Of a stretch of 32,000 nucleotides of DNA, positions 20,333 through 26,284 are shown piece by piece. The notes below the pieces were generated by a model. That model saw only the letters and a program-made list of their open reading frames with translations. It made no database searches and was not told the DNA's origin. The stretch is from Thermofilum pendens Hrk 5 (GTDB lineage Archaea > Thermoproteota > Thermoprotei > Thermofilales > Thermofilaceae), in assembly GCF_000015225.1 (NCBI RefSeq), contig NC_008698.1, forward strand, positions 1,680,001 through 1,712,000, written 5' to 3'. Numbering within the stretch: position 1 is the first letter of the stretch; each line of letters starts with the position of its first letter. The position numbers were made by a program, and so were the translations under genes.

Positions 20333-21304
20333 TTAATGCTCCCGCCCGGCTAGCCTGCTTATTCTCCTAATGTAGTAAAGCTTCCCCTCGTACTCGATCT
20401 CTACCAGGAGGTTCTCGCGCACGAGCTCCTCCACTACGCCCCACTCCGCCCCCGCCCTCTTAAGGAACTCCTCGACGGCGTCTCTCCGCATCGGGTGCAC
20501 CGCCGTTATGGCGAGCAGGTCCTCCCTTACGTTCCCGGTTGGCGCGAAGTCGCTTCCCTCGTACCCCGTGAGCAACTCCACCCTGCCTGGGCCGAGCCTC
20601 TCCGAGAGAAGCTGGTAGGCGGCGTTCACGACCTCCTCCCCTGCGGGCTTCACCCACTTCTCGGCGGGGGGCCTCACCGGGACCGCTACGTAGGCCTTCG
20701 CGAGCCTCCTCAGGCCTCCCAGAAAGTCCGCGAGCCGCTGCAGCTCCTCGCCGTACTCCACGCCTCCTACGAGCATTGTCTCCGAGACAAGGGTTCCCTT
20801 GAACTCCTCGGCGAACACGGATACACCTTCCAGGACCTTCTCAAGGCTTAGCTCCCTGCTCGGCCTGTTCACCCTCCTCCACAGGCCCTCCTCGACCGCG
20901 TCGACCTTCACGGATACGAAGTCTGCGCCTGCTAGGTCCTCCCTTACGTCCTCGCGCCACAGGAGCGACGCGTTCGTGAGGACGGCTACCGGTTTCCCCA
21001 GGCCCTTTAGGAGCGAGATCTCCCTCCCGAGGTTCGCGTCCAGAGTAGGCTCCCCGTCCGGCACGAATGTTACGAAGTCCACCCTCTCCCCCCTGGACGC
21101 CGCCTCTCCGAGCTTGGCTTTGACTGCCTCGTATACCTTCTCGGGCTCGTAGAAGGCCCTCCTCTCCACCGTGAGGACCGTAGTCCTCCCGACTTGGCAG
21201 TACACGCAGGAGTAGGAGCACACCTTGGCCGGTATGTTGTTGACGCCGAGGCTTCTCCCCAGCCTCCTGCTAGGCACGGGCCCGAACGCTAGCGCGGAGT
21301 CCAC
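20333..21304 (-). CDS. Radical SAM domain protein with a non-rSAM C-terminal domain
   Basis: CSYSCVYCQ (CxxxCxxC), preceded by FGPVPSRRLGRSLGVNNIP. GTG start 14 nt downstream of the Bax1 stop. Confidence 0.85.
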   Translation of the reverse strand: MDSALAFGPVPSRRLGRSLGVNNIPAKVCSYSCVYCQVGRTTVLTVERRAFYEPEKVYEAVKAKLGEAASRGERVDFVTFVPDGEPTLDANLGREISLLKGLGKPVAVLTNASLLWREDVREDLAGADFVSVKVDAVEEGLWRRVNRPSRELSLEKVLEGVSVFAEEFKGTLVSETMLVGGVEYGEELQRLADFLGGLRRLAKAYVAVPVRPPAEKWVKPAGEEVVNAAYQLLSERLGPGRVELLTGYEGSDFAPTGNVREDLLAITAVHPMRRDAVEEFLKRAGAEWGVVEELVRENLLVEIEYEGKLYYIRRISRLAGREH

Positions 21305-21318
21305 AAGCTGTTTCCGAG

Positions 21319-22725
21319 CTACCGGCGTTTATTCTTTTTCAGTACGAGCTTGTCGGGGTCTAGCGTTGTCCAGTCGACCCCGTAGCCCAGCTTTTCGAGC
21401 ACCTTGACTGCCTCGCTCTCGGGGACCCCCAGCTTCCTGAGCTCCCTGATAGCCTCGGAGAGTGTTCTCCCGGAGAGGTCCGGTAGCCCCTCCAGGCGGT
21501 ACTCGACTTCTTCTCGCGGCTCCTCGGGGGGCTCGCCGAGGTAGCGCTTGAGTACCGGGTAGACGTCCGCCCCCCTCAGCCGCCCCTTGAAGACCACGAC
21601 GTCGTGGGGCAGGTCCTTCACGGAGGAGCACGCTAGCTCCTCGTTCACGGCTACCACGATGTTGACCCCGCGTAGCTCTCTAAGCTTCTGCATCTTCCTC
21701 TCCAGGTAGTCCTTGGTCCAGAAGCCGAGTATCTCTATGTACACCTTCCTCTCGCCGTTCGACACCGAGAAGTCGGGTATCAGGACCTTGTTCCCGGCTA
21801 CGAGCGGCTCGGGCTCCCGCTCCACCCTCCAGCCGCGCGCGAGGCTCGAGATGCTCCTGTAGAACTCCCTCTCGACCTCGCTGTCGAAGAGGGGCTCCGG
21901 CTCCTCCTCCACCCTTGGGAACAGCCCCGACTTCTCGTCGCCGAGCTCGAAGAAGAGGTCCCTCCCCCTCGCCGGGACCCTAGCCCTGATCCTCCAGCGC
22001 TCAGCCAGCATCACGAGTGGGACTAGCTTCGCCAGCCTGGTCCCGTACCTCCTGGTCTGCCTCAGCAGCGACGCGGGCCCGTCCACGGTTAGCCTCACCC
22101 CCTCGCCGAGCTGCTCCGCGACGTAGAGTAGGCCCAGCCTCTTCACCGCTCTCAGCAGCTTCTTCGCCGTCGCGCCGTCGCTCCTGAAGACCACTTCGAG
22201 CTGCGAGGCCTTGAAGAGCAGCGTCTGCACCATCGAGAGGTTAAGCATCCTCACGAGGTCCTCGGCCTTCAGCGCCGGGGGCTCCGCCAGTACTTCCTCG
22301 AGGTACCCGCCGAGCACCGACTCCAGGTCCTCGACGCTGCAGCCGAGCCTCTCCGCTACCCGCCGGAGCACCGTAGACCTCTCCTCCTCCGTGACCGCTA
22401 CTCCGAACTCCCTGCAAGCCTCCTCGAAGACCTCCATCCTCGCCTTCACGGGGTCGACGGGGGCCTTCGGGGGCTCGAACCTCGCGTGCCGCGCCGCGAG
22501 CGTGAACATAGCCCTGACTACCCTGAGGTCGAGGCCCAGCTCGAGGGCGAGTTCCTCCAGGTCGGCGAGGCCCTCCTCAAGCTCCCTCCTGCCCTTGCCC
22601 ACCCCCCGCTCGAAGAGCTCCAGGACCTCCGAGGCGAGGGCCACCGGTAGCCCGGAAGGCTCGAGTAGCAGGGGCTCGATGCGCCCCCGCCGCGCGCGTG
22701 CCACGAGGAGGTTGGACGGCAACAC
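21319..22725 (-). CDS. bax1: Bax1 nuclease (DUF790), XPB partner
   Basis: Start reassigned to GTG 22725-22723 (M-LPSNLLVARARRGRIEPLLL, typical Bax1 N-terminus). Nuclease region LIPDFSV...KVYIEILGFWTKDYLERK. The 683-aa track ORF is an artefactual extension into XPB. Confidence 0.8.
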   Translation of the reverse strand: MLPSNLLVARARRGRIEPLLLEPSGLPVALASEVLELFERGVGKGRRELEEGLADLEELALELGLDLRVVRAMFTLAARHARFEPPKAPVDPVKARMEVFEEACREFGVAVTEEERSTVLRRVAERLGCSVEDLESVLGGYLEEVLAEPPALKAEDLVRMLNLSMVQTLLFKASQLEVVFRSDGATAKKLLRAVKRLGLLYVAEQLGEGVRLTVDGPASLLRQTRRYGTRLAKLVPLVMLAERWRIRARVPARGRDLFFELGDEKSGLFPRVEEEPEPLFDSEVEREFYRSISSLARGWRVEREPEPLVAGNKVLIPDFSVSNGERKVYIEILGFWTKDYLERKMQKLRELRGVNIVVAVNEELACSSVKDLPHDVVVFKGRLRGADVYPVLKRYLGEPPEEPREEVEYRLEGLPDLSGRTLSEAIRELRKLGVPESEAVKVLEKLGYGVDWTTLDPDKLVLKKNKRR

Positions 22726-24080
22726 TACTGCCCACCCTTCAGCGCCTTTCTGCGCTTCCGCGAGATCTCCACCTCCTTGGTTCCGGAGGTCACGACCTCG
22801 TAGACCACGGCCCTCTTCCCCTCGCGCGGCCTTAGGACCCTCCCAAGCCTCTGGACGAACTCCCTCCTGCTCGCCGTTCCGCTCAGGATCACCGCGACGT
22901 TCGCGTCCGGGACGTCGACGCCCTCCTCCAGCACCTTGCTCGTCACTATGGCGCGCACGAGCCCCTTCCTGAAGGCGGACATCACGGCTCTCCGCTCCTC
23001 CTCGGGCGTCCTGTACGTTATCTCGGGTACCAGGAAGCGGGAGGATATCCTCCTCACCACGTCGCCGTGCTCGGCGAATATCAGCACCTTGTCGCCCCTG
23101 TGCCTCGCCAGGAGCTCTTCGAGGACCTCCATCTTCGAGGAGGCGTGCAGGGCTATCCTCCTGGCCCTGTACCACGCGAGGAGGGCTTCCCTGGCCTCGG
23201 GGTCCTTCACGCTGAGCGCGGCGAGCCTCTCGAAGTCCCGGGGGCCCCGGATCCTGAGCCCCCTCTTCCTCAGGAACGACCTGTACGTCCTCGTAAGCCT
23301 CTCGTACTCCTCCCTCTCCTCCGGCGACATCTCCGCGTACACGCGGACAACGTCGAACTCCGCGAGCCACTTCCCCGCCATCTCGCCCACGCCGCGCCTA
23401 TACACGACGGGGCCGACGAGGTACGGCAGGAGCTCGTGGAGCCCGTCCTCCCGCTCCGGGGTCGCCGTGAGGCCCATCCTCCAGGGGGCGGCCGAGAGCT
23501 CTGCTACCTGCCTGTAGCCCGGGCTCGGGAGGTGGTGGACCTCGTCGAACACTAGGAGCTCGAACTTGTCTCCCAGGAACTCCGCGTTCACGTACGCCGA
23601 GTCGTACGTGGCTACAGTGACACAGCCCACCTCCTTCTCCCCTCCCCCGTACCTCCCCGGCGCGACCCCCAGGTGCCTCCTAACCCCCTCCTCCCACTGG
23701 TCCATGAGCTCCAGTGTCGGCACGACTATCAGCGTGGGGCAAGCGAGCCTAGCGATCGCCGCGAGGGCGACCATCGTCTTGCCTGCCCCCGTAGGCAGGA
23801 CCACGACCCCCCTCCTCCCAGCCATCCACCTCTCCAGGGCCTCCTCCTGGTAGTCCCTGAGCTGGACCTCGCGCGCTTGGAGCTTGCACTGGGGAGGGTG
23901 CAGGACGTCGTCCTCGAACTCGACGCCAGCCTCCCTCAAGGCCTCCACTATCCACCTGTACTGTATCGCGAGGGCGCGGTAACCCTTGACCCTAGGGTCG
24001 AAGCGGAAGTAGGGAGCCACGCTCGGCGGGGGAGAACCCCTGAGCAGTATAGTCCCCGCGCTCCACTCAAGCTTCAACAT
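22725..24080 (-). CDS. xpb: XPB/Rad25-type superfamily 2 DNA helicase
   Basis: Walker A LPTGAGKT, DEVH box (VFDEVHHLP), RED motif (TATPEREDG), helicase C-terminal motifs (VTSKVLEEGVDVP, QRLGRVLR). Confidence 0.9.
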   Translation of the reverse strand: MLKLEWSAGTILLRGSPPPSVAPYFRFDPRVKGYRALAIQYRWIVEALREAGVEFEDDVLHPPQCKLQAREVQLRDYQEEALERWMAGRRGVVVLPTGAGKTMVALAAIARLACPTLIVVPTLELMDQWEEGVRRHLGVAPGRYGGGEKEVGCVTVATYDSAYVNAEFLGDKFELLVFDEVHHLPSPGYRQVAELSAAPWRMGLTATPEREDGLHELLPYLVGPVVYRRGVGEMAGKWLAEFDVVRVYAEMSPEEREEYERLTRTYRSFLRKRGLRIRGPRDFERLAALSVKDPEAREALLAWYRARRIALHASSKMEVLEELLARHRGDKVLIFAEHGDVVRRISSRFLVPEITYRTPEEERRAVMSAFRKGLVRAIVTSKVLEEGVDVPDANVAVILSGTASRREFVQRLGRVLRPREGKRAVVYEVVTSGTKEVEISRKRRKALKGGQ

Positions 24081-24147
24081 CCCTAAGCCCCAGTGATGCC
24101 AAGAATCATTTATGCATGACGCCGCGTGATAGTTGCGCGAAAAACTG

Positions 24148-24498
24148 TCATCCCTGCCCGGTCTCCCCGGGAGCGCCGGGGAGCTGGGCTATCACTATGG
24201 GCCTCCCCTCGAGGATCGCCGAGACAAGCTTCTCCCTACCGCTCTCAACGAGCCTCCACACGGTGGTTCTCGAAACGCCCATCCTCGCCCCCGCCTCCTC
24301 GTACGACAGCTTCTCCAAGTCTACCAGTCGGAGCGCTTCGACCTCCGCCGGTTCAAGCACCACGGGCTCTATGGGTAAAGGAGGCGGAGGGTAGGGGTTA
24401 AAGCCCTGCACGCTTGGAAGAAACCCCACGCTGACCGGCTTCGGCGGCCTTCCTATCCTCCCCCTCCTGTGCCTGTAGCACCACCCATGCCCGGGCAT
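24148..24498 (-). CDS. DUF134 (UPF0251) family HTH protein, putative transcriptional regulator
   Basis: MPGHGWCYRHRRGRIGRPPKP ... VVLEPAEVEALRLVDLEKLSYEEAGARMGVSRTTVWRLVESGREKLVSAILEGRPIVI matches the DUF134 architecture (basic N-terminus plus sigma-70 region 4-like HTH). ATG 24498 preferred over TTG 24504. Confidence 0.85.
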   Translation of the reverse strand: MPGHGWCYRHRRGRIGRPPKPVSVGFLPSVQGFNPYPPPPLPIEPVVLEPAEVEALRLVDLEKLSYEEAGARMGVSRTTVWRLVESGREKLVSAILEGRPIVIAQLPGAPGETGQG

Positions 24499-24564
24499 CG
24501 CCAAACCCCCTACACCTTAACAAGCCGGGTACCCTTCATTTAAAGCCTTCTTTAAGCGTAATGC

Positions 24565-24588
24565 TTAAATATTTCGTGATTTATCACG
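24565..24588 (+). promoter_or_regulatory. TATA-like TTAAATAT followed by the dyad CGTGAT-TT-ATCACG (candidate operator)
   Basis: TATA at 24565-24572. Dyad at 24575-24588, between the TATA and ATG 24606. GGTGAGG SD-like at 24594-24600. Confidence 0.5.
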
Positions 24589-24605
24589 TAAATCGGTGAG
24601 GCAGA

Positions 24606-24833
24606 ATGAGTTGGTGGGGTGGGTGGCCTGGTAGGGGTCCTTTCAGCTACCTGCCGCCCTGGCAGAGGCCTGGCTGGGTGTTCGGTAGGGGTGCTTGCTG
24701 GCGGCTAGCACCGTACACTTGGGCACGGTACCCGTGGACACCTTACTACCCAGCGCCTTACTACTGGGCGTACTACCCAAAGCCCTACTACCCAGCACCC
24801 TGGCAAGCTAGGTACTGGTTGCCCTGGTGGTGA
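24606..24833 (+). CDS. Trp/Tyr/Pro-rich small basic protein (75 aa), unknown function
   Basis: My count: 13 W, 12 Y, 15 P, 7 G, 6 R, 1 K, 0 D/E. Promoter and SD-like element upstream. Reiterated PYY(P/W)A units. Confidence 0.6.
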   Translation: MSWWGGWPGRGPFSYLPPWQRPGWVFGRGACWRLAPYTWARYPWTPYYPAPYYWAYYPKPYYPAPWQARYWLPWW

Positions 24834-24838
24834 TCCGC

Positions 24839-25111
24839 ATGGCTTTCGCTTGGAGGAGGTATTGGAGGGCTGGGTGGGGCGGCTGGGGTTACCCGCCGTA
24901 CTACGGCTATCCTCCGGCGATGCCTCCGTGGGCTCCTCCGATGTCCCCGGAGCAGGAGCTCAGGTACCTCGAGGACTACAGGCGGTGGCTGGAGGAGTAT
25001 AGGAAGAGCCTCGAAGAGGAGATAAAGGGAGTGGAAGAGGAATTGAAGGAGGTTGATTCGAGGATAGAGGAGCTTAGAAGAATGCTCGGCAGAGGAGCAA
25101 CGCCCCCGTAA
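24839..25111 (+). CDS. DUF5320-like small protein: aromatic/Gly/Pro-rich N-terminus plus C-terminal coiled coil
   Basis: MAFAWRRYWRAGWGGWGYPPYYGYPPAMPPWAPP, then SPEQELRYLEDYRRWLEEYRKSLEEEIKGVEEELKEVDSRIEELRRML. This architecture is characteristic of DUF5320, a frequent DUF134 neighbour (from memory). ATG is 5 nt after the upstream stop. Confidence 0.65.
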   Translation: MAFAWRRYWRAGWGGWGYPPYYGYPPAMPPWAPPMSPEQELRYLEDYRRWLEEYRKSLEEEIKGVEEELKEVDSRIEELRRMLGRGATPP

Positions 25112-25173
25112 AGGCTAGTTCTTTTTCCCGTTTAAGAGAGCGGCCCTGGTTATCTCGATTCGTTGAATTTATC

Positions 25174-25192
25174 ATTAATAATTTTTATTAAT
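25174..25192. promoter_or_regulatory. AT-only palindrome ATTAATAA-TTT-TTATTAAT, the promoter core of gap
   Basis: 19 consecutive A/T bases in a high-GC genome, 16-34 nt upstream of ATG 25208. Confidence 0.6.
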
Positions 25193-25207
25193 TACTTTGC
25201 CTCCCCC

Positions 25208-26284
25208 ATGCTCGTGCCGATAAGAGTACTTGTGAACGGTATCGGTACTATTGGCAAGAGGGTGGCGCACGCCGTCTCGCTACAGCCCGACATGGTGCTT
25301 GTAGGTGTATCGTCGCCGAGGCCTAGCCTCGGGGTTCTTAGTAGCTTGTCTCGGGGAGGGGTCCTCGAGGGTGTGCCTTTCTACGTGCGCGGCGCTAGTC
25401 CCTCGCTGTTCGAGGAGCGCGGAGTGAGGGTTGGCGGTGTTCTCGAGGACTTGCTTGGGAGTGGGAGGGTGGACGTCGTGGTGGACGCGGCGCCCGGGGG
25501 CGAGGGGCTGAGGAACAGGGACGAGCTTTACTCGAGGTACGGTGTTCGCGCGGTCTTCCAGGGTGGTGAGCCGGCGGCTGTCGCGGAGCTCACGTTTAGC
25601 CCCTTCTTCAACTACGGGGATGCTTTCGGCAGGAGGTACGTCAGGGTTCCGTCTTGCAATACTACCGGTATCCTGAGGGTTGTCAGCGCTCTTTCCTCGC
25701 TGGGAGAGCTGCGCGAGGTCTTCGTCGTCATAGCTAGGAGGGCTGCGGACCCAGCGGATAGGAAGGGAGCGCGCCTCAACGCTTTGAGCCTCGACGGAGG
25801 CGTCCCGTCGCACCACGCGTCGGACGTTAGGACTGTTCTCCCCTGGCTGAACGTGTTCACGGTGGCTGTGAAAGTTCCGACCACCCTCGCGCACCTCCAC
25901 GTTGCGCGCGTAAGGCTCGGCGGCAGGCTGTCGAGGGGCGACGTCATCGAGGCTCTGGAGTCGCACAGGAGGATAGTCGTCGCAGGAGGCGAGTTCGAGG
26001 CGACCCCGGATCTCCTGGAGTTCTTCCGGGACAGGAGGCTTAGGGGCGACATGTACGAGGTAGCCGTGCTAGAGGACTCTGTGCACGTAGACGGCGAGTA
26101 TGCGACGCTGTCGTACGTGGTTCACCAGGAAGCCGTGGTGATCCCCGAGAACATCGACGCTGTGAGGGCGATGTTTCTAGGCGGAGACCCGGAGGCCGGC
26201 ATGGAAGCCACTGATAGTTCTCTCGGCGTAACGAGGGGGCGCCTCGCTCCGCGCAGGGCGCTTGTTGCCGCACGACAGTCTTGA
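25208..26284 (+). CDS. gap: Glyceraldehyde-3-phosphate dehydrogenase, archaeal type II
   Basis: VNGIGTIGKRVAHAV, catalytic VPSCNTTGILRVVSAL, PSHHASDVRTVLP, VKVPTTLAHLH, VVHQEAVVIPENIDAVRAM. Start moved from 25163 to ATG 25208 because 25163-25207 is the AT-rich promoter. Confidence 0.8.
   Translation: MLVPIRVLVNGIGTIGKRVAHAVSLQPDMVLVGVSSPRPSLGVLSSLSRGGVLEGVPFYVRGASPSLFEERGVRVGGVLEDLLGSGRVDVVVDAAPGGEGLRNRDELYSRYGVRAVFQGGEPAAVAELTFSPFFNYGDAFGRRYVRVPSCNTTGILRVVSALSSLGELREVFVVIARRAADPADRKGARLNALSLDGGVPSHHASDVRTVLPWLNVFTVAVKVPTTLAHLHVARVRLGGRLSRGDVIEALESHRRIVVAGGEFEATPDLLEFFRDRRLRGDMYEVAVLEDSVHVDGEYATLSYVVHQEAVVIPENIDAVRAMFLGGDPEAGMEATDSSLGVTRGRLAPRRALVAARQS

What the first reader, a model, noticed from the sequence alone, without database searches (positions are those of the whole stretch)
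24148..25111. Divergon: DUF134 regulator facing two tiny Trp/Tyr/Pro-rich proteins, the second DUF5320-like
A DUF134 HTH gene (minus) and a two-gene plus-strand unit share a 107-nt control region. That region has two TATA-like elements and a CGTGAT-TT-ATCACG dyad. The plus unit encodes:
- a 75-aa protein that is 53% W+Y+P with no acidic residue;
- 5 nt later, a 90-aa protein with a similar aromatic/Gly/Pro N-terminus and an acidic coiled-coil C-terminus (DUF5320-type architecture).

To my knowledge DUF134 and DUF5320 are both uncharacterised and often neighbours. The extra coil-less aromatic paralogue and the absence of the usual Fe-S / NifX-like neighbours make this a minimal version of an unexplained module.
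Basis: partly seen in the sequence, partly recalled or inferred. Interest (0 to 1): 0.65.

Follow-up and report, generated by a model that had tools for sequence, protein, structure and literature searches.

The report
Regulator and split small-protein pair
A small DNA-binding regulator faces a two-gene operon for two tiny proteins that together equal one uncharacterised archaeal protein (DUF5320). The first carries a 23-residue motif almost unchanged across archaeal phyla, and elsewhere the module sits in iron-sulfur handling gene clusters.

Summary
DUF134 (24148-24498, minus) passes Pfam. ORF1 (75 aa) and ORF2 (90 aa) are real genes.

ORF1, not ORF2, is the key piece. It carries the motif PGRGPFSYLPPWQRPGW-x-[FY]-GRGACW, which is near-invariant in 233 archaeal loci. 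Codon third positions vary freely, so selection acts on the protein.

ORF1 and ORF2 are not paralogues. They are the two halves of a split DUF5320:
- Aromatic-tailed motif proteins have a separate coil partner within 700 nt in 44 of 56 cases.
- Motif proteins that carry their own coil have such a partner in 0 of 24 cases.

It lies just downstream of the TATA box in 65 of 81 loci, about 100 times its density elsewhere. Its half-site type tracks the DUF134 recognition helix.

In related loci the module heads clusters with NifX/IssA-like, MinD-ferredoxin, FeoB, DtxR and NifU genes. The 32-kb window has none of these, so it is a minimal version, as are 10 of 37 full-flank loci.

Function is inferred only: a DUF134-repressed pair acting in iron-sulfur storage or trafficking. 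No biochemistry exists for either family.

The parts
24148..24498 (-). DUF134 (UPF0251) transcription regulator, 116 aa. It has a disordered cationic N-terminal arm (W-x-x-R-x-R-R-G-R-x-G-R-P-P-K-P) and a three-helix sigma-70 region-4-like HTH.
   Evidence: Pfam PF02001 scores 71.5 bits against a cutoff of 27. The 116-aa form is on record (P0188). Alignment A2 of 63 homologues shows 17 invariant columns. The AF2 model has mean pLDDT 80, and 87-98 over residues 41-100. Best PDB fold matches are ECF sigma region 4, rmsd 0.6-0.8 A over about 47 residues.
24499..24605 (.). 107-nt divergent control region shared by DUF134 and the ORF1-ORF2 operon.
   Evidence: Read directly from the sequence. The same divergent layout occurs in most of the 58 related loci that have DUF134 nearby.
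24539..24544 (-). TATA-like TTTAAA, 41-46 nt upstream of the DUF134 ATG. It is the putative DUF134 promoter.
   Evidence: Sequence only. Not tested.
24565..24574 (+). TATA-like box TTAAATATTT of the ORF1-ORF2 operon. It directly abuts the operator.
   Evidence: An operator-anchored alignment of 65 loci shows an AT-rich 'ttatatt/taaatat' block immediately 5' of the operator in the same register.
24576..24587 (.). It is a member of the conserved palindrome GTG[AC]-N4-[GT]CAC.
   Evidence: The pattern lies within 300 nt upstream of the motif in 65 of 81 loci: 2.9 per kb against 0.029 per kb elsewhere. Degenerate copies sit at the same place in most of the remaining loci. Hits with AT-rich flanks lie almost only in this promoter. 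The window has 3 pattern hits against 1.3 expected, and the other two lack AT-rich flanks.
24595..24601 (+). Shine-Dalgarno-like GGTGAGG, 4 nt before the ORF1 ATG.
   Evidence: Sequence. GGTGA or GAGGTG occurs at the same place in most aligned loci.
24606..24833 (+). ORF1, 75 aa. This is the N-terminal half of a split DUF5320: the invariant motif followed by a Tyr/Trp/Pro-rich tail. It has one Cys, no acidic residue and pI 9.8.
   Evidence: Homologues are listed. 233 loci were found. Codon entropy at positions 1/2/3 is 0.29/0.14/1.27 bits. No Pfam or NCBIfam hit. It is not on record as a called gene. AF2 gives mean pLDDT 53, so no confident fold alone.
24627..24701 (+). Invariant motif P8-W32: PGRGPFSYLPPWQRPGWVFGRGACW.
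   Evidence: 18 invariant and 7 nearly invariant columns in 33 proteins from at least 8 archaeal lineages. The same holds in 80 distinct DNA copies with free synonymous variation.
24826..24833 (+). Shine-Dalgarno-like GGTGGTGA for ORF2. It overlaps the ORF1 stop codon, which suggests translational coupling.
   Evidence: Sequence. The ATG at 24839 matches the N-termini of homologues P0073 and P0074, which begin M-[AT]-W-P-R-R-R.
24839..25111 (+). ORF2, 90 aa. This is the coil half of the split DUF5320: a basic/aromatic N-terminus (MAFAWRRYWRAGWGGWGYPP...) and an acidic coiled coil (PEQELRYLEDYRRWLEE...RIEELRRML).
   Evidence: PF17253 is sub-threshold at 21.3 bits against 27. Exact copies are called as genes on 4 contigs. 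ORF2-type genes lie next to motif genes in 36 of 80 loci. phmmer matches the coil of fused motif+coil proteins at E = 4e-11.
25119..25133 (+). T-rich tract TTCTTTTTCCCGTTT, 8 nt after the ORF2 stop. It is a likely archaeal oligo-T terminator that ends the two-gene operon.
   Evidence: Sequence only. Not tested.
20333..21304 (-). Radical-SAM gene of the family that accompanies the module in other genomes. Here it is separated from DUF134 by XPB-Bax1. It is only possibly associated.
   Evidence: PF04055 scores 59.5 bits. The same BLAST cluster occurs in 13 of 80 loci and is often adjacent to DUF134 or MBL.

Best explanation
Shown by sequence comparison:
- The locus is a self-contained regulatory module.
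- The HTH protein DUF134 is transcribed divergently from a two-gene operon.
- The two products, ORF1 and ORF2, are the separated N-terminal and C-terminal halves of an archaeal DUF5320 protein.
- The operon promoter carries a conserved palindromic operator, GTGATTTATCAC. It sits between the TATA box and the ribosome-binding site.

Inferred from position and from covariation between protein and site:
- A DUF134 dimer binds this operator. Its sigma-70 region-4-like HTH reads the GTGA/TCAC half-sites. Its AT-hook-like arm may contact the AT-rich centre and flanks.
- Bound DUF134 would block RNA polymerase recruitment, so DUF134 would act as the repressor of ORF1-ORF2.

Inferred from gene neighbourhoods in other archaea and from analogy with the IssA tail:
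- ORF1 and ORF2 act together as a small cationic/aromatic, single-cysteine peptide held in an oligomer by the ORF2 coiled coil.
- The pair works in iron-sulfur handling, meaning storage, buffering or hand-over of Fe-S or thioferrate-like species. In most other genomes it does so alongside NifX/IssA-like proteins and MinD-ferredoxin ATPases.
- The invariant motif is the docking or ligand-binding element.

In this genome only the regulator and the peptide pair remain together.
For: 1. Genes are real.
- DUF134 passes Pfam.
- The ORF1 motif is under protein-level purifying selection: codon entropy is 0.29/0.14/1.27 bits at positions 1/2/3 in 80 DNA copies.
- ORF2 is called as a gene on several contigs and has homologues with the same start.

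2. Split versus fused forms.
- Fused motif+coil proteins pass PF17253 at 30.6-36.3 bits.
- 44 of 56 aromatic-tailed motif genes have a separate coil gene within 700 nt.
- 0 of 24 coil-tailed motif genes do. Fisher p = 8e-12, though the loci are not phylogenetically independent.

3. Linkage of regulator and target.
- DUF134 lies near the motif gene, usually within about 1 kb, in 58 of 80 loci.

4. Operator.
- Present in 65 of 81 loci, about 100-fold enriched, in a fixed register with the TATA box and ATG.
- Essentially confined to this promoter.
- Degenerate copies occur in most of the other loci.

5. Covariation.
- All 42 DUF134 proteins with an SRGT recognition helix pair with operators that contain GTGC half-sites.
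- The five with SR[N/S/T]T (window, L031, L040, L041, L085) pair with pure GTGA...TCAC operators, across different host phyla.

6. DUF134 fold.
- Sigma-70 region-4-like HTH plus a conserved arm, R-R-G-R-x-G-R-P-P-K-P.

7. Fe-S context in 80 loci.
- NifX-like PF02579 in 49, plus 6 fused to the same coil.
- MinD/ParA with 4Fe-4S ferredoxin inserts in 31.
- DtxR 10, EncFtn-like 10, FeoB 8, NifU_N 7.
- The nearest syntenic relative has DtxR-FeoA-FeoB-DUF134 / motif-coil-NifX x3-ParA-MBL-rSAM.

8. Literature.
- The tail of P. furiosus IssA is cationic, aromatic and Gly/Pro-rich, holds the only Cys, and is proposed to wrap anionic thioferrate (PMC5524996).
- The Desulfovibrio ORP complex combines the same MinD-ferredoxin ATPases with NifX-like proteins (PMC6345978).
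Against: - There is no experimental evidence for DNA binding, for an ORF1-ORF2 interaction, or for metal or Fe-S binding.
- The window itself has none of the Fe-S genes, so the functional link rests on other genomes.
- DUF134 has no conserved Cys or other obvious sensor site, so the signal is unknown.
- In about a third of the aligned loci the operator lies upstream of the TATA box, which fits activation or a different mode.
- The helix/operator covariation may reflect a single evolutionary event within one DUF134 clade.
- ORF1 is predicted disordered when alone.
- The exhaustive search found no IssA-type NifX protein carrying the motif. The resemblance to the IssA tail is therefore compositional, not homology.
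- The operator pattern was derived from the same loci on which it was then counted.
Confidence: 0.5

Rival explanations
1. ORF1 and ORF2 are partner-switch modulators of DUF134 itself. They would bind its sigma-70 region-4-like domain or its cationic arm, as anti-sigma factors bind region 4. This would close a feedback loop, and the pair would have no direct role in Fe-S chemistry.
For: - The DUF134 core superposes on sigma region 4 structures that were solved in complex with anti-sigma helices such as RsdA, RseA and NepR.
- The motif gene is the most constant neighbour of DUF134 and essentially the only operator target.
- The extreme invariance of the motif fits a protein-protein docking site.
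- The module persists as a stand-alone trio here and in 10 of 37 full-flank loci.
Against: - 22 of 80 loci have the motif gene and its operator but no DUF134 within 6 kb.
- The coil is also fused directly to NifX-like domains. The motif is fused to a zinc ribbon or a Cys-rich tail in some lineages. Both point to a role alongside the metal-handling proteins.
- No interaction test was possible, because only single chains could be modelled.
Confidence: 0.12
2. The pair is a structural scaffold or condensate former. Aromatic/Arg/Gly and Pro/Gln-rich low-complexity segments plus a coiled coil would position MinD-like ATPases or other clients. This would resemble the cell-division role proposed for the Desulfovibrio ORP complex.
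For: - ORF1 and the ORF2 N-terminus are sticker-rich low-complexity sequences. ORF2-type proteins carry long P/Q-rich linkers and a coil.
- Paired MinD/ParA-type ATPases are neighbours in 31 of 80 loci.
- The ORP complex is putatively linked to cell division, and MrpORP is polar (PMC6345978 and PMC8359166).
Against: - A 23-residue motif that is invariant in sequence is not expected for composition-driven phase separation.
- The wider neighbourhood (FeoB, DtxR, NifU, EncFtn, NifX) points to iron, not to division.
- The cell-division role of ORP is itself only a hypothesis in the cited papers.
Confidence: 0.1
3. ORF1 is a ribosomally made peptide precursor. It would have a conserved leader and a variable aromatic core that is cross-linked by the nearby radical-SAM enzyme.
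For: - ORF1 has a conserved N-terminus and a hypervariable Tyr/Trp/Pro-rich C-terminus.
- A radical-SAM gene of one family occurs in 13 of 80 loci and in the window at 20333-21304. An MBL hydrolase occurs in 24 loci.
Against: - The radical-SAM gene is absent from most loci and is 3 kb away here.
- It gives only the general PF04055 hit and weak MoaA/viperin-type matches, with no SPASM or peptide-recognition domain reported.
- In 24 loci the 'core' is replaced by a coiled coil, and those forms are bona fide DUF5320.
- No protease or exporter is conserved nearby.
- Leader invariance across phyla is atypical for such precursors.
Confidence: 0.04
4. The W/R/G-rich segments of ORF1, ORF2 and DUF134 bind nucleic acid in the manner of RGG boxes. 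The module would then be a nucleoid or RNA-associated system unrelated to metals.
For: - A motif scan of Methanosarcina mazei flagged both a DUF134 and a DUF5320 protein as carrying a G-quadruplex-binding-type RG motif (PMC7565180).
- ORF1 is cationic and free of acidic residues.
Against: - That report is a pattern match only.
- The gene neighbourhoods are dominated by iron and Fe-S genes and contain no conserved nucleic-acid enzymes.
- XPB-Bax1 next to the window's DUF134 is not conserved in other loci.
Confidence: 0.06

Closest known systems
DUF5320 (Pfam PF17253), an uncharacterised family of about 100-aa proteins in archaea and bacteria
   Same: - Full-length relatives of ORF1, with the same N-terminal motif plus a C-terminal coil, pass the Pfam threshold (precomputed hits).
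- The ORF2 coil aligns to profile positions 37-98.
- The gene context beside DUF134 and NifX-like genes is the same.
   Different: - Here the protein is split into two genes.
- ORF1 alone gives no Pfam hit, and ORF2 is below threshold.
- Each half has acquired an extra aromatic/Pro-rich low-complexity segment.
- The ORF2 coil is the longer 'PEEELxxLExYK...' type, not the classic 'TKEQExxML...' type.
DUF134 / UPF0251 / COG1342 predicted DNA-binding protein
   Same: - Clear Pfam membership.
- Sigma-70 region-4-like HTH and a conserved GRxPKP arm.
   Different: - It scores below the NCBIfam PRK04217 equivalog cutoff, 94 against 115 bits.
- It belongs to a sub-clade with an SR[N/S/T]T recognition helix that pairs with GTGA-type operators rather than GTGC-type.
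- Full-text searches found no published operator or regulon for the family.
IssA, the iron-sulfur storage protein of Pyrococcus furiosus (NifX-like domain plus a cationic tail that binds thioferrate)
   Same: - The IssA tail is Pro-rich, then cationic/aromatic/Gly-rich. It holds the protein's only Cys, is predicted to be disordered, and has pI 10.7 (PMC5524996). ORF1 has the same chemical character.
- NifX-like proteins with G/R/W-rich tails are the commonest neighbours of ORF1 homologues.
   Different: - ORF1 is a free-standing peptide with no NifX domain.
- The exhaustive search found no NifX protein carrying the invariant motif, so homology to the IssA tail is not shown.
- The window has no NifX gene.
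Orange-protein (ORP) gene cluster of Desulfovibrio vulgaris (Orp3/Orp4 MinD-ferredoxin ATPases, Orp8 NifX-like orange protein, Orp9 MrpORP)
   Same: Related archaeal loci hold the same components: a pair of MinD/ParA ATPases with 4Fe-4S inserts, NifX-like proteins and Mrp-type carriers (PMC6345978).
   Different: - The bacterial cluster is controlled by sigma-54 and the enhancer-binding protein OrpR, not by DUF134.
- Whether Orp5 or Orp7 belongs to DUF134 or DUF5320 could not be checked here.
- None of the ATPase or NifX genes is in this window.
Archaeal repressors that bind a palindrome between the TATA box and the start site (for example MDR1, Phr, NrpR; named from general knowledge)
   Same: The operator position is immediately downstream of the TATA box and upstream of the SD and ATG.
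   Different: - The DNA-binding fold differs: sigma region 4-like plus an AT-hook-like arm.
- Repression is inferred, not shown.

Membership tests
DUF134 (PF02001) | Score above the Pfam gathering threshold | tested here: met
   71.5 bits against a cutoff of 27, protein residues 16-105 on profile positions 3-90 of 98.
DUF134 (PF02001) | Sigma-70 region-4-type helix-turn-helix core | tested here: met
   PF04545 and PF08281 hits. The AF2 model has pLDDT 87-98 for residues 41-100. Foldseek top hits are ECF sigma region 4, rmsd 0.6-0.8 A over about 47 residues.
DUF134 (PF02001) | NCBIfam equivalog PRK04217 cutoff | tested here: not met
   94.1 bits against a cutoff of 115. It is a family member but not that equivalog.
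DUF134 (PF02001) | Sequence-specific DNA binding or regulator activity | not testable with these tools
   Only indirect support is available: the conserved operator and its covariation with the recognition helix.
DUF5320 (PF17253) | ORF2 scores above the Pfam gathering threshold | tested here: not met
   21.3 bits against 27, E = 6.5e-4. Two other ORF2-type proteins gave 17.7 bits and no hit.
DUF5320 (PF17253) | ORF1 scores above the Pfam gathering threshold | tested here: not met
   No Pfam family at E <= 1.
DUF5320 (PF17253) | ORF1 and ORF2 together reproduce the architecture of bona fide members (Gly/Pro/Arg-rich N-terminus with one Cys, followed by an acidic coil) | tested here: met
   - P0001, P0023 and P0006 have the same motif plus a coil and pass at 36.3, 30.7 and 30.6 bits.
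- P0003, L012 and L016 join the motif to an ORF2-type coil.
- The partner pattern is strictly complementary: 44 of 56 against 0 of 24.
ORP / IssA-type Fe-S handling cluster | NifX-like (PF02579) gene in the same locus | tested here: not met
   None in the 32-kb window. Present in 49 of 80 related loci and in the nearest syntenic relative, L085.
ORP / IssA-type Fe-S handling cluster | Paired MinD/ParA ATPases with 4Fe-4S ferredoxin inserts | tested here: not met
   None in the window. Present in 31 of 80 related loci.
ORP / IssA-type Fe-S handling cluster | Binding of Fe-S clusters or thioferrate by the proteins | not testable with these tools
   Requires anaerobic reconstitution and spectroscopy.
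RiPP precursor with radical-SAM maturase | Dedicated maturase (radical SAM with a peptide-recognition or SPASM domain) consistently adjacent | tested here: not met
   The radical-SAM family occurs in only 13 of 80 loci. Here it lies 3 kb away beyond XPB-Bax1. It gives only the generic PF04055 hit.

The most novel reading that the evidence does not exclude
The invariant peptide PGRGPFSYLPPWQRPGW-x-[FY]-GRGACW is a pan-archaeal ligand-binding module for inorganic anionic iron-sulfur species (thioferrate or FeS polyanions). Free or coil-tethered, it would nucleate or cap these species. DUF134 would sense the same polyanion through its own W/R/G-rich arm, in competition with DNA binding. That would make a protein-light Fe-S storage-and-sensing circuit of a kind not yet described.
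Probability: 0.15. Interest if true: 0.85.

Novelty: new variant of a known kind. Interest (0 to 1): 0.66.

Why it matters
- DUF134 and DUF5320 are widespread in anaerobic archaea and bacteria. Full-text searches found no functional study of either.
- This locus and its relatives give both families a concrete, testable model:
  - a defined operator, GTG[AC]N4[GT]CAC;
  - a defined primary target, the motif gene;
  - a defined regulator-site specificity pair, a Gly versus Asn/Ser/Thr residue against a C versus A base;
  - a split/fused pair that predicts a physical ORF1-ORF2 complex.
- The 23-residue motif is conserved to a degree unusual for such short, unstructured proteins. It heads operons that contain IssA/NifX-like, MinD-ferredoxin, FeoB and NifU genes. 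It is therefore a strong candidate for a missing component of archaeal iron-sulfur storage or trafficking.
- Gene finders miss the ORF1-type gene in this genome and in its nearest relative, so the family is under-annotated.

Tried and rejected
1. Exact-sequence lookup of ORF1 in the gene index found nothing. It is an uncalled gene, not evidence against it.
2. Pfam and NCBIfam scans of ORF1 gave no family.
3. PDB sequence searches with the ORF1 profile and with DUF134 gave no informative relatives beyond sigma region 4.
4. AF2 of ORF1 with a 33-sequence alignment gave mean pLDDT 53 and no fold. I therefore ran no fold search on it.
5. An Rfam scan of 24000-25300 gave only chance-level miRNA/sRNA hits. 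A structured RNA explanation for the conserved DNA is also rejected by the codon pattern.
6. One frameshifted gene instead of two was rejected. ORF2-type proteins have their own conserved Met-start and basic N-terminus in many genomes, and ORF2 has its own SD.
7. An IssA tail that contains the motif was rejected. No NifX-bearing protein appears among the 117 exhaustive hits.
8. An operator regulon inside the window was not found. The two other pattern hits lack the AT-rich flanks and match chance expectation.
9. Literature searches for DUF134, DUF5320, UPF0251, COG1342 and the motif strings found no functional work. The founding ORP paper (PMC3133258) is not held, so the families of Orp5 and Orp7 could not be checked.
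10. A conserved Cys sensor in DUF134 was looked for and not found.
Full report
**1. What is in the sequence**

- A DUF134 gene lies on the minus strand at 24148-24498. The ATG start gives the 116-aa form that is on record as P0188.
- A 107-nt spacer follows, then a plus-strand pair.
- ORF1 is at 24606-24833 and encodes 75 aa.
- ORF2 starts 5 nt after the ORF1 stop, at 24839-25111, and encodes 90 aa.
- ORF1 is 53.3% Trp+Tyr+Pro, has no Asp or Glu, has one Cys, and has pI 9.8.
- ORF2 has a basic aromatic N-terminus and an acidic C-terminal coil.
- The dyad CGTGATTTATCACG is at 24575-24588. It directly follows a TATA-like TTAAATATTT. GGTGAGG and the ORF1 ATG come after it.
- ORF2 has its own GGTGGTGA, which overlaps the ORF1 stop codon.
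- A T-rich tract follows the ORF2 stop.

DUF134 is a clear Pfam member at 71.5 bits against a cutoff of 27. ORF2 reaches only 21.3 bits against the cutoff of 27 for DUF5320. ORF1 hits nothing.

**2. ORF1 is a real gene and the most remarkable part**

A word-indexed search returned 71 small archaeal proteins. All share a nearly invariant stretch, W-P-G-R-G-P-F-S-Y-L-P-P-W-Q-R-P-G-W-[LVI]-[FY]-G-R-G-A-C-W.
- In an alignment of 33 proteins, 18 columns are invariant and 7 more are at least 90% conserved. The sequences come from Thermoplasmatales, Bathyarchaeia, Nitrososphaeria, Methanomethylicota, Hadesarchaea, Thermococcus, Thermoprotei and Desulfurococcales.
- A scan of one genome per species found 233 confirmed loci, including Asgard lineages.
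- An exhaustive HMMER search of 1.84 billion representatives found 117 clusters. Nearly all are 50-170 aa.
- In 80 distinct DNA copies, mean entropy is 0.29 and 0.14 bits at codon positions 1 and 2, and 1.27 bits at position 3. That is selection on the amino-acid sequence, not on DNA or RNA.
- Rfam finds nothing here.
- AF2 gives no confident fold for ORF1 alone, with mean pLDDT 53. No PDB relative exists.
- The exact ORF1 product is not on record as a called gene, whereas ORF2 and DUF134 are.
- In the nearest syntenic relative the homologue (L085:9719-9985) is likewise uncalled.

**3. ORF1 and ORF2 are two halves of a split DUF5320**

After the motif, family members continue in one of two ways.
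- Some have a Tyr/Trp/Pro-rich tail, like ORF1.
- Others have a linker plus an acidic coil. Those are true DUF5320 members: P0001, P0023 and P0006 score 36.3, 30.7 and 30.6 bits.

ORF2-type proteins have three parts: a basic aromatic N-terminus, often a Pro/Gln-rich linker, and then 'PEEELxMLEDYKxxLEEEL...VEERIKELK'. They lie next to the motif gene in 36 of 80 loci. The same coil type is fused to the motif in Nitrososphaeria (P0003, L012, L016; phmmer E about 1e-10).

The distribution is strictly complementary.
- 44 of 56 aromatic-tailed motif genes have a separate coil gene within 700 nt.
- 0 of 24 coil-tailed motif genes do (Fisher p = 8e-12). The loci are not phylogenetically independent, so this p-value overstates the support.

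This is a classic split/fusion pattern and predicts that ORF1 and ORF2 form a complex.

**4. The dyad is a conserved operator, and DUF134 is its likely reader**

A DUF134 homologue lies near the motif gene in 58 of 80 loci. It is usually within about 1 kb, mostly divergent and sometimes co-directional.

Operator occurrence:
- The palindrome GTG[AC]-N4-[GT]CAC occurs within 300 nt upstream of the motif in 65 of 81 loci. Its density there is 2.9 per kb, against 0.029 per kb in the rest of the loci.
- Most of the remaining loci have one-mismatch copies at the same spot.
- The extended consensus is TTnTGTGCaataGCACAaAA.
- Copies with AT-rich flanks occur almost only in this promoter.
- I derived the pattern from these same sequences. 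The size of the effect and the fixed register make over-fitting an unlikely explanation.

Operator position:
- In the commoner layout, shared by the window, the operator directly follows the TATA box. It precedes GGTGA and the ATG by 15-25 nt. Archaeal repressors that block polymerase recruitment typically bind at this position (general knowledge).
- In a minority of loci the operator sits just upstream of the TATA box.

DUF134 structure:
- DUF134 models as a three-helix sigma-70 region-4-like HTH. pLDDT is 87-98 for residues 41-100, and rmsd to ECF sigma region 4 is 0.6-0.8 A.
- A conserved, low-confidence arm, W-x-x-R-x-R-R-G-R-x-G-R-P-P-K-P, precedes the HTH. It resembles an AT-hook, which would suit the AT-rich centre and flanks. 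This is inference.

Covariation:
- All 42 DUF134 proteins with SRGT at the start of the recognition helix accompany operators that contain GTGC half-sites.
- The five with SR[N/S/T]T accompany pure GTGA...TCAC operators. These are the window, L031 (Bathyarchaeota), L040 and L041 (Methanomethylicota-type) and L085.
- The operator type follows the regulator clade rather than the host taxon, which supports direct recognition. It may still trace to a single evolutionary event.

**5. Functional context**

Gene families recurring within 6 kb of the motif gene in the 80 loci:

| Neighbour | Loci |
|---|---|
| NifX-like PF02579 | 49, plus 6 fused to the same coil |
| Paired MinD/ParA ATPases with 4Fe-4S ferredoxin inserts | 31 |
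| Metallo-beta-lactamase-fold protein | 24 |
| One radical-SAM family | 13 |
| DtxR-type repressor | 10 |
| EncFtn-like ferritin | 10 |
| FeoB | 8 |
| NifU_N | 7 |

- Many of the NifX-like proteins carry G/R/W-rich tails.
- The nearest syntenic relative reads DtxR-FeoA-FeoB-DUF134 / motif-coil-NifX x3-ParA-MBL-radical SAM.
- A Thermococcus contig has the motif gene beside Mrp/ParA, MBL, NifX and two MinD-ferredoxin genes.
- This gene set matches the Desulfovibrio orange-protein cluster, which holds Orp3/4 MinD-ferredoxin ATPases, the Orp8 NifX-like protein and the Orp9 MrpORP Fe-S carrier (PMC6345978).
- It also matches IssA of P. furiosus. The IssA tail is disordered, Pro-rich and then cationic/aromatic/Gly-rich. 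It holds the protein's only Cys and is proposed to wrap anionic thioferrate (PMC5524996).
- ORF1 has that same chemical character. No NifX protein carries the motif itself, so this is analogy and not homology.

**6. The window is a minimal version**

HMMs built from the neighbour families find no NifX, MinD-ferredoxin, MBL, EncFtn, FeoB, DtxR or NifU anywhere in the 32 kb.
- ORF2 is followed by a type II GAPDH gene.
- DUF134 is followed by XPB-Bax1, and then by the radical-SAM gene of the family seen in other loci.
- Ten of 37 loci with full flanks are similarly minimal. They are mainly Desulfurococcaceae and Thermoproteales.

The trio of regulator, operator and split peptide pair is therefore the conserved core. 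The Fe-S genes are a frequent but separable periphery.

**7. Most likely mechanism, and what is shown versus inferred**

Shown by comparative sequence analysis:
- the three genes are real;
- DUF5320 is split between ORF1 and ORF2;
- the operator and its register with the promoter are conserved;
- DUF134, the operator and the motif gene are linked.

Inferred:
- DUF134 binds the operator as a dimer and represses ORF1-ORF2.
- ORF1 and ORF2 assemble, with the coil providing oligomerisation and the motif providing docking or ligand binding through its single Cys.
- The pair acts in Fe-S or thioferrate storage or trafficking.

Confidence is high, about 0.85, for the architecture and regulation statement. 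It is about 0.4-0.5 for the Fe-S role. The signal sensed by DUF134 is unknown, because no Cys is conserved.

Rival readings are listed separately with their tests: an anti-sigma-like feedback partner of DUF134, a scaffold or condensate for MinD-like ATPases, a RiPP precursor, and an RGG-type nucleic-acid binder.

**8. Novelty and score**

Both Pfam families are catalogued but uncharacterised. Full-text searches found no functional study and no mention of the motif.

New here:
- the invariant motif family;
- the split/fused relation between ORF1 and ORF2;
- the operator with its specificity covariation;
- the recognition that the peptide gene is the primary target of the regulator.

I file the locus as a new variant of a known but uncharacterised kind. 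Interest is moderately high because it makes two long-standing DUFs directly testable and points to a possible missing piece of archaeal iron-sulfur handling.

Noticed in passing
window 21319-24080 (-): An XPB helicase (22725-24080) and a Bax1 nuclease (21319-22728, overlapping by 4 nt) form an operon directly downstream of DUF134. The ORF lister's 683-aa GTG-started ORF over-extends Bax1. This neighbour is not conserved in related loci.
   Followed up: partly
window 20333-21304 (-): A radical-SAM gene (PF04055 only; weak MoaA/viperin-type NCBIfam matches). It belongs to the same BLAST cluster as radical-SAM genes that sit next to DUF134 or MBL in 13 of 80 related loci. With separate NifX-like genes, this recalls a split NifB.
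   Followed up: partly
window 25205-26284 (+): A type II (archaeal) glyceraldehyde-3-phosphate dehydrogenase (NCBIfam PRK04207, 386 bits). It has its own AT-rich promoter region immediately after the ORF2 terminator-like tract.
   Followed up: partly
L085:9719-9985; window 24606-24833: The motif gene is not called by the gene finders behind the public index, either in the window's genome or in its nearest syntenic relative. The family is probably under-annotated in many archaeal genomes.
   Followed up: partly
L017:6189-6710, L018:6322-6852, L028:3353-3886, L037:6232-6750, L060:6235-6771: A third small-protein family with its own conserved N-terminus, 'MGYRWRRMYYLTGxPGWMRFGYSPGWVGRSPTGLPPTAEW..SSGL', followed by two coils, one of each type. 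It passes PF17253 at 34.4 bits and replaces the ORF2-type partner in 9 loci (Nitrososphaeria, Bathyarchaeia, Thermococci).
   Followed up: partly
L071:5962-6246; P0111; L067:3324-3950: Alternative fusions of the motif:
- In an Asgard (Promethearchaeota) locus it is fused to a zinc ribbon (PF13240).
- In P0111 it is fused to a 3-Cys tail, 'DCAYFNGGIC...ACPSF'. This resembles the C-terminus of a NifX-like protein in a Thermococci locus, 'DCIHYKNGKC...ACPFF'.
- These may be a shared small metal-binding element.
   Followed up: no
L014:2672-3328, L025:6187-6885, L076:6244-6984, L023:5266-5871, L037:7034-7621, L060:7049-7690: NifX-like domains are fused to the same coiled coil through Gly/Arg/Met-rich linkers such as 'GMGRGMGRGRGMG', at either terminus. 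Tandem double-NifX proteins with such linkers also occur (L007, L043, L063, L066).
   Followed up: no
L007 and L011 (same Hadesarchaea MAG); L009 and L015 (Methanodesulfokora); L067: Some genomes carry two motif genes, each with its own operator and sometimes without DUF134 nearby. The regulator therefore probably acts in trans on several copies.
   Followed up: no
window 24745-24800: The ORF1 tail contains an internal near-repeat, 'PYYPAP...PYYPAP' (DNA CCnTACTACCCAGCnCC twice). This suggests the aromatic tail grew by local duplication.
   Followed up: no
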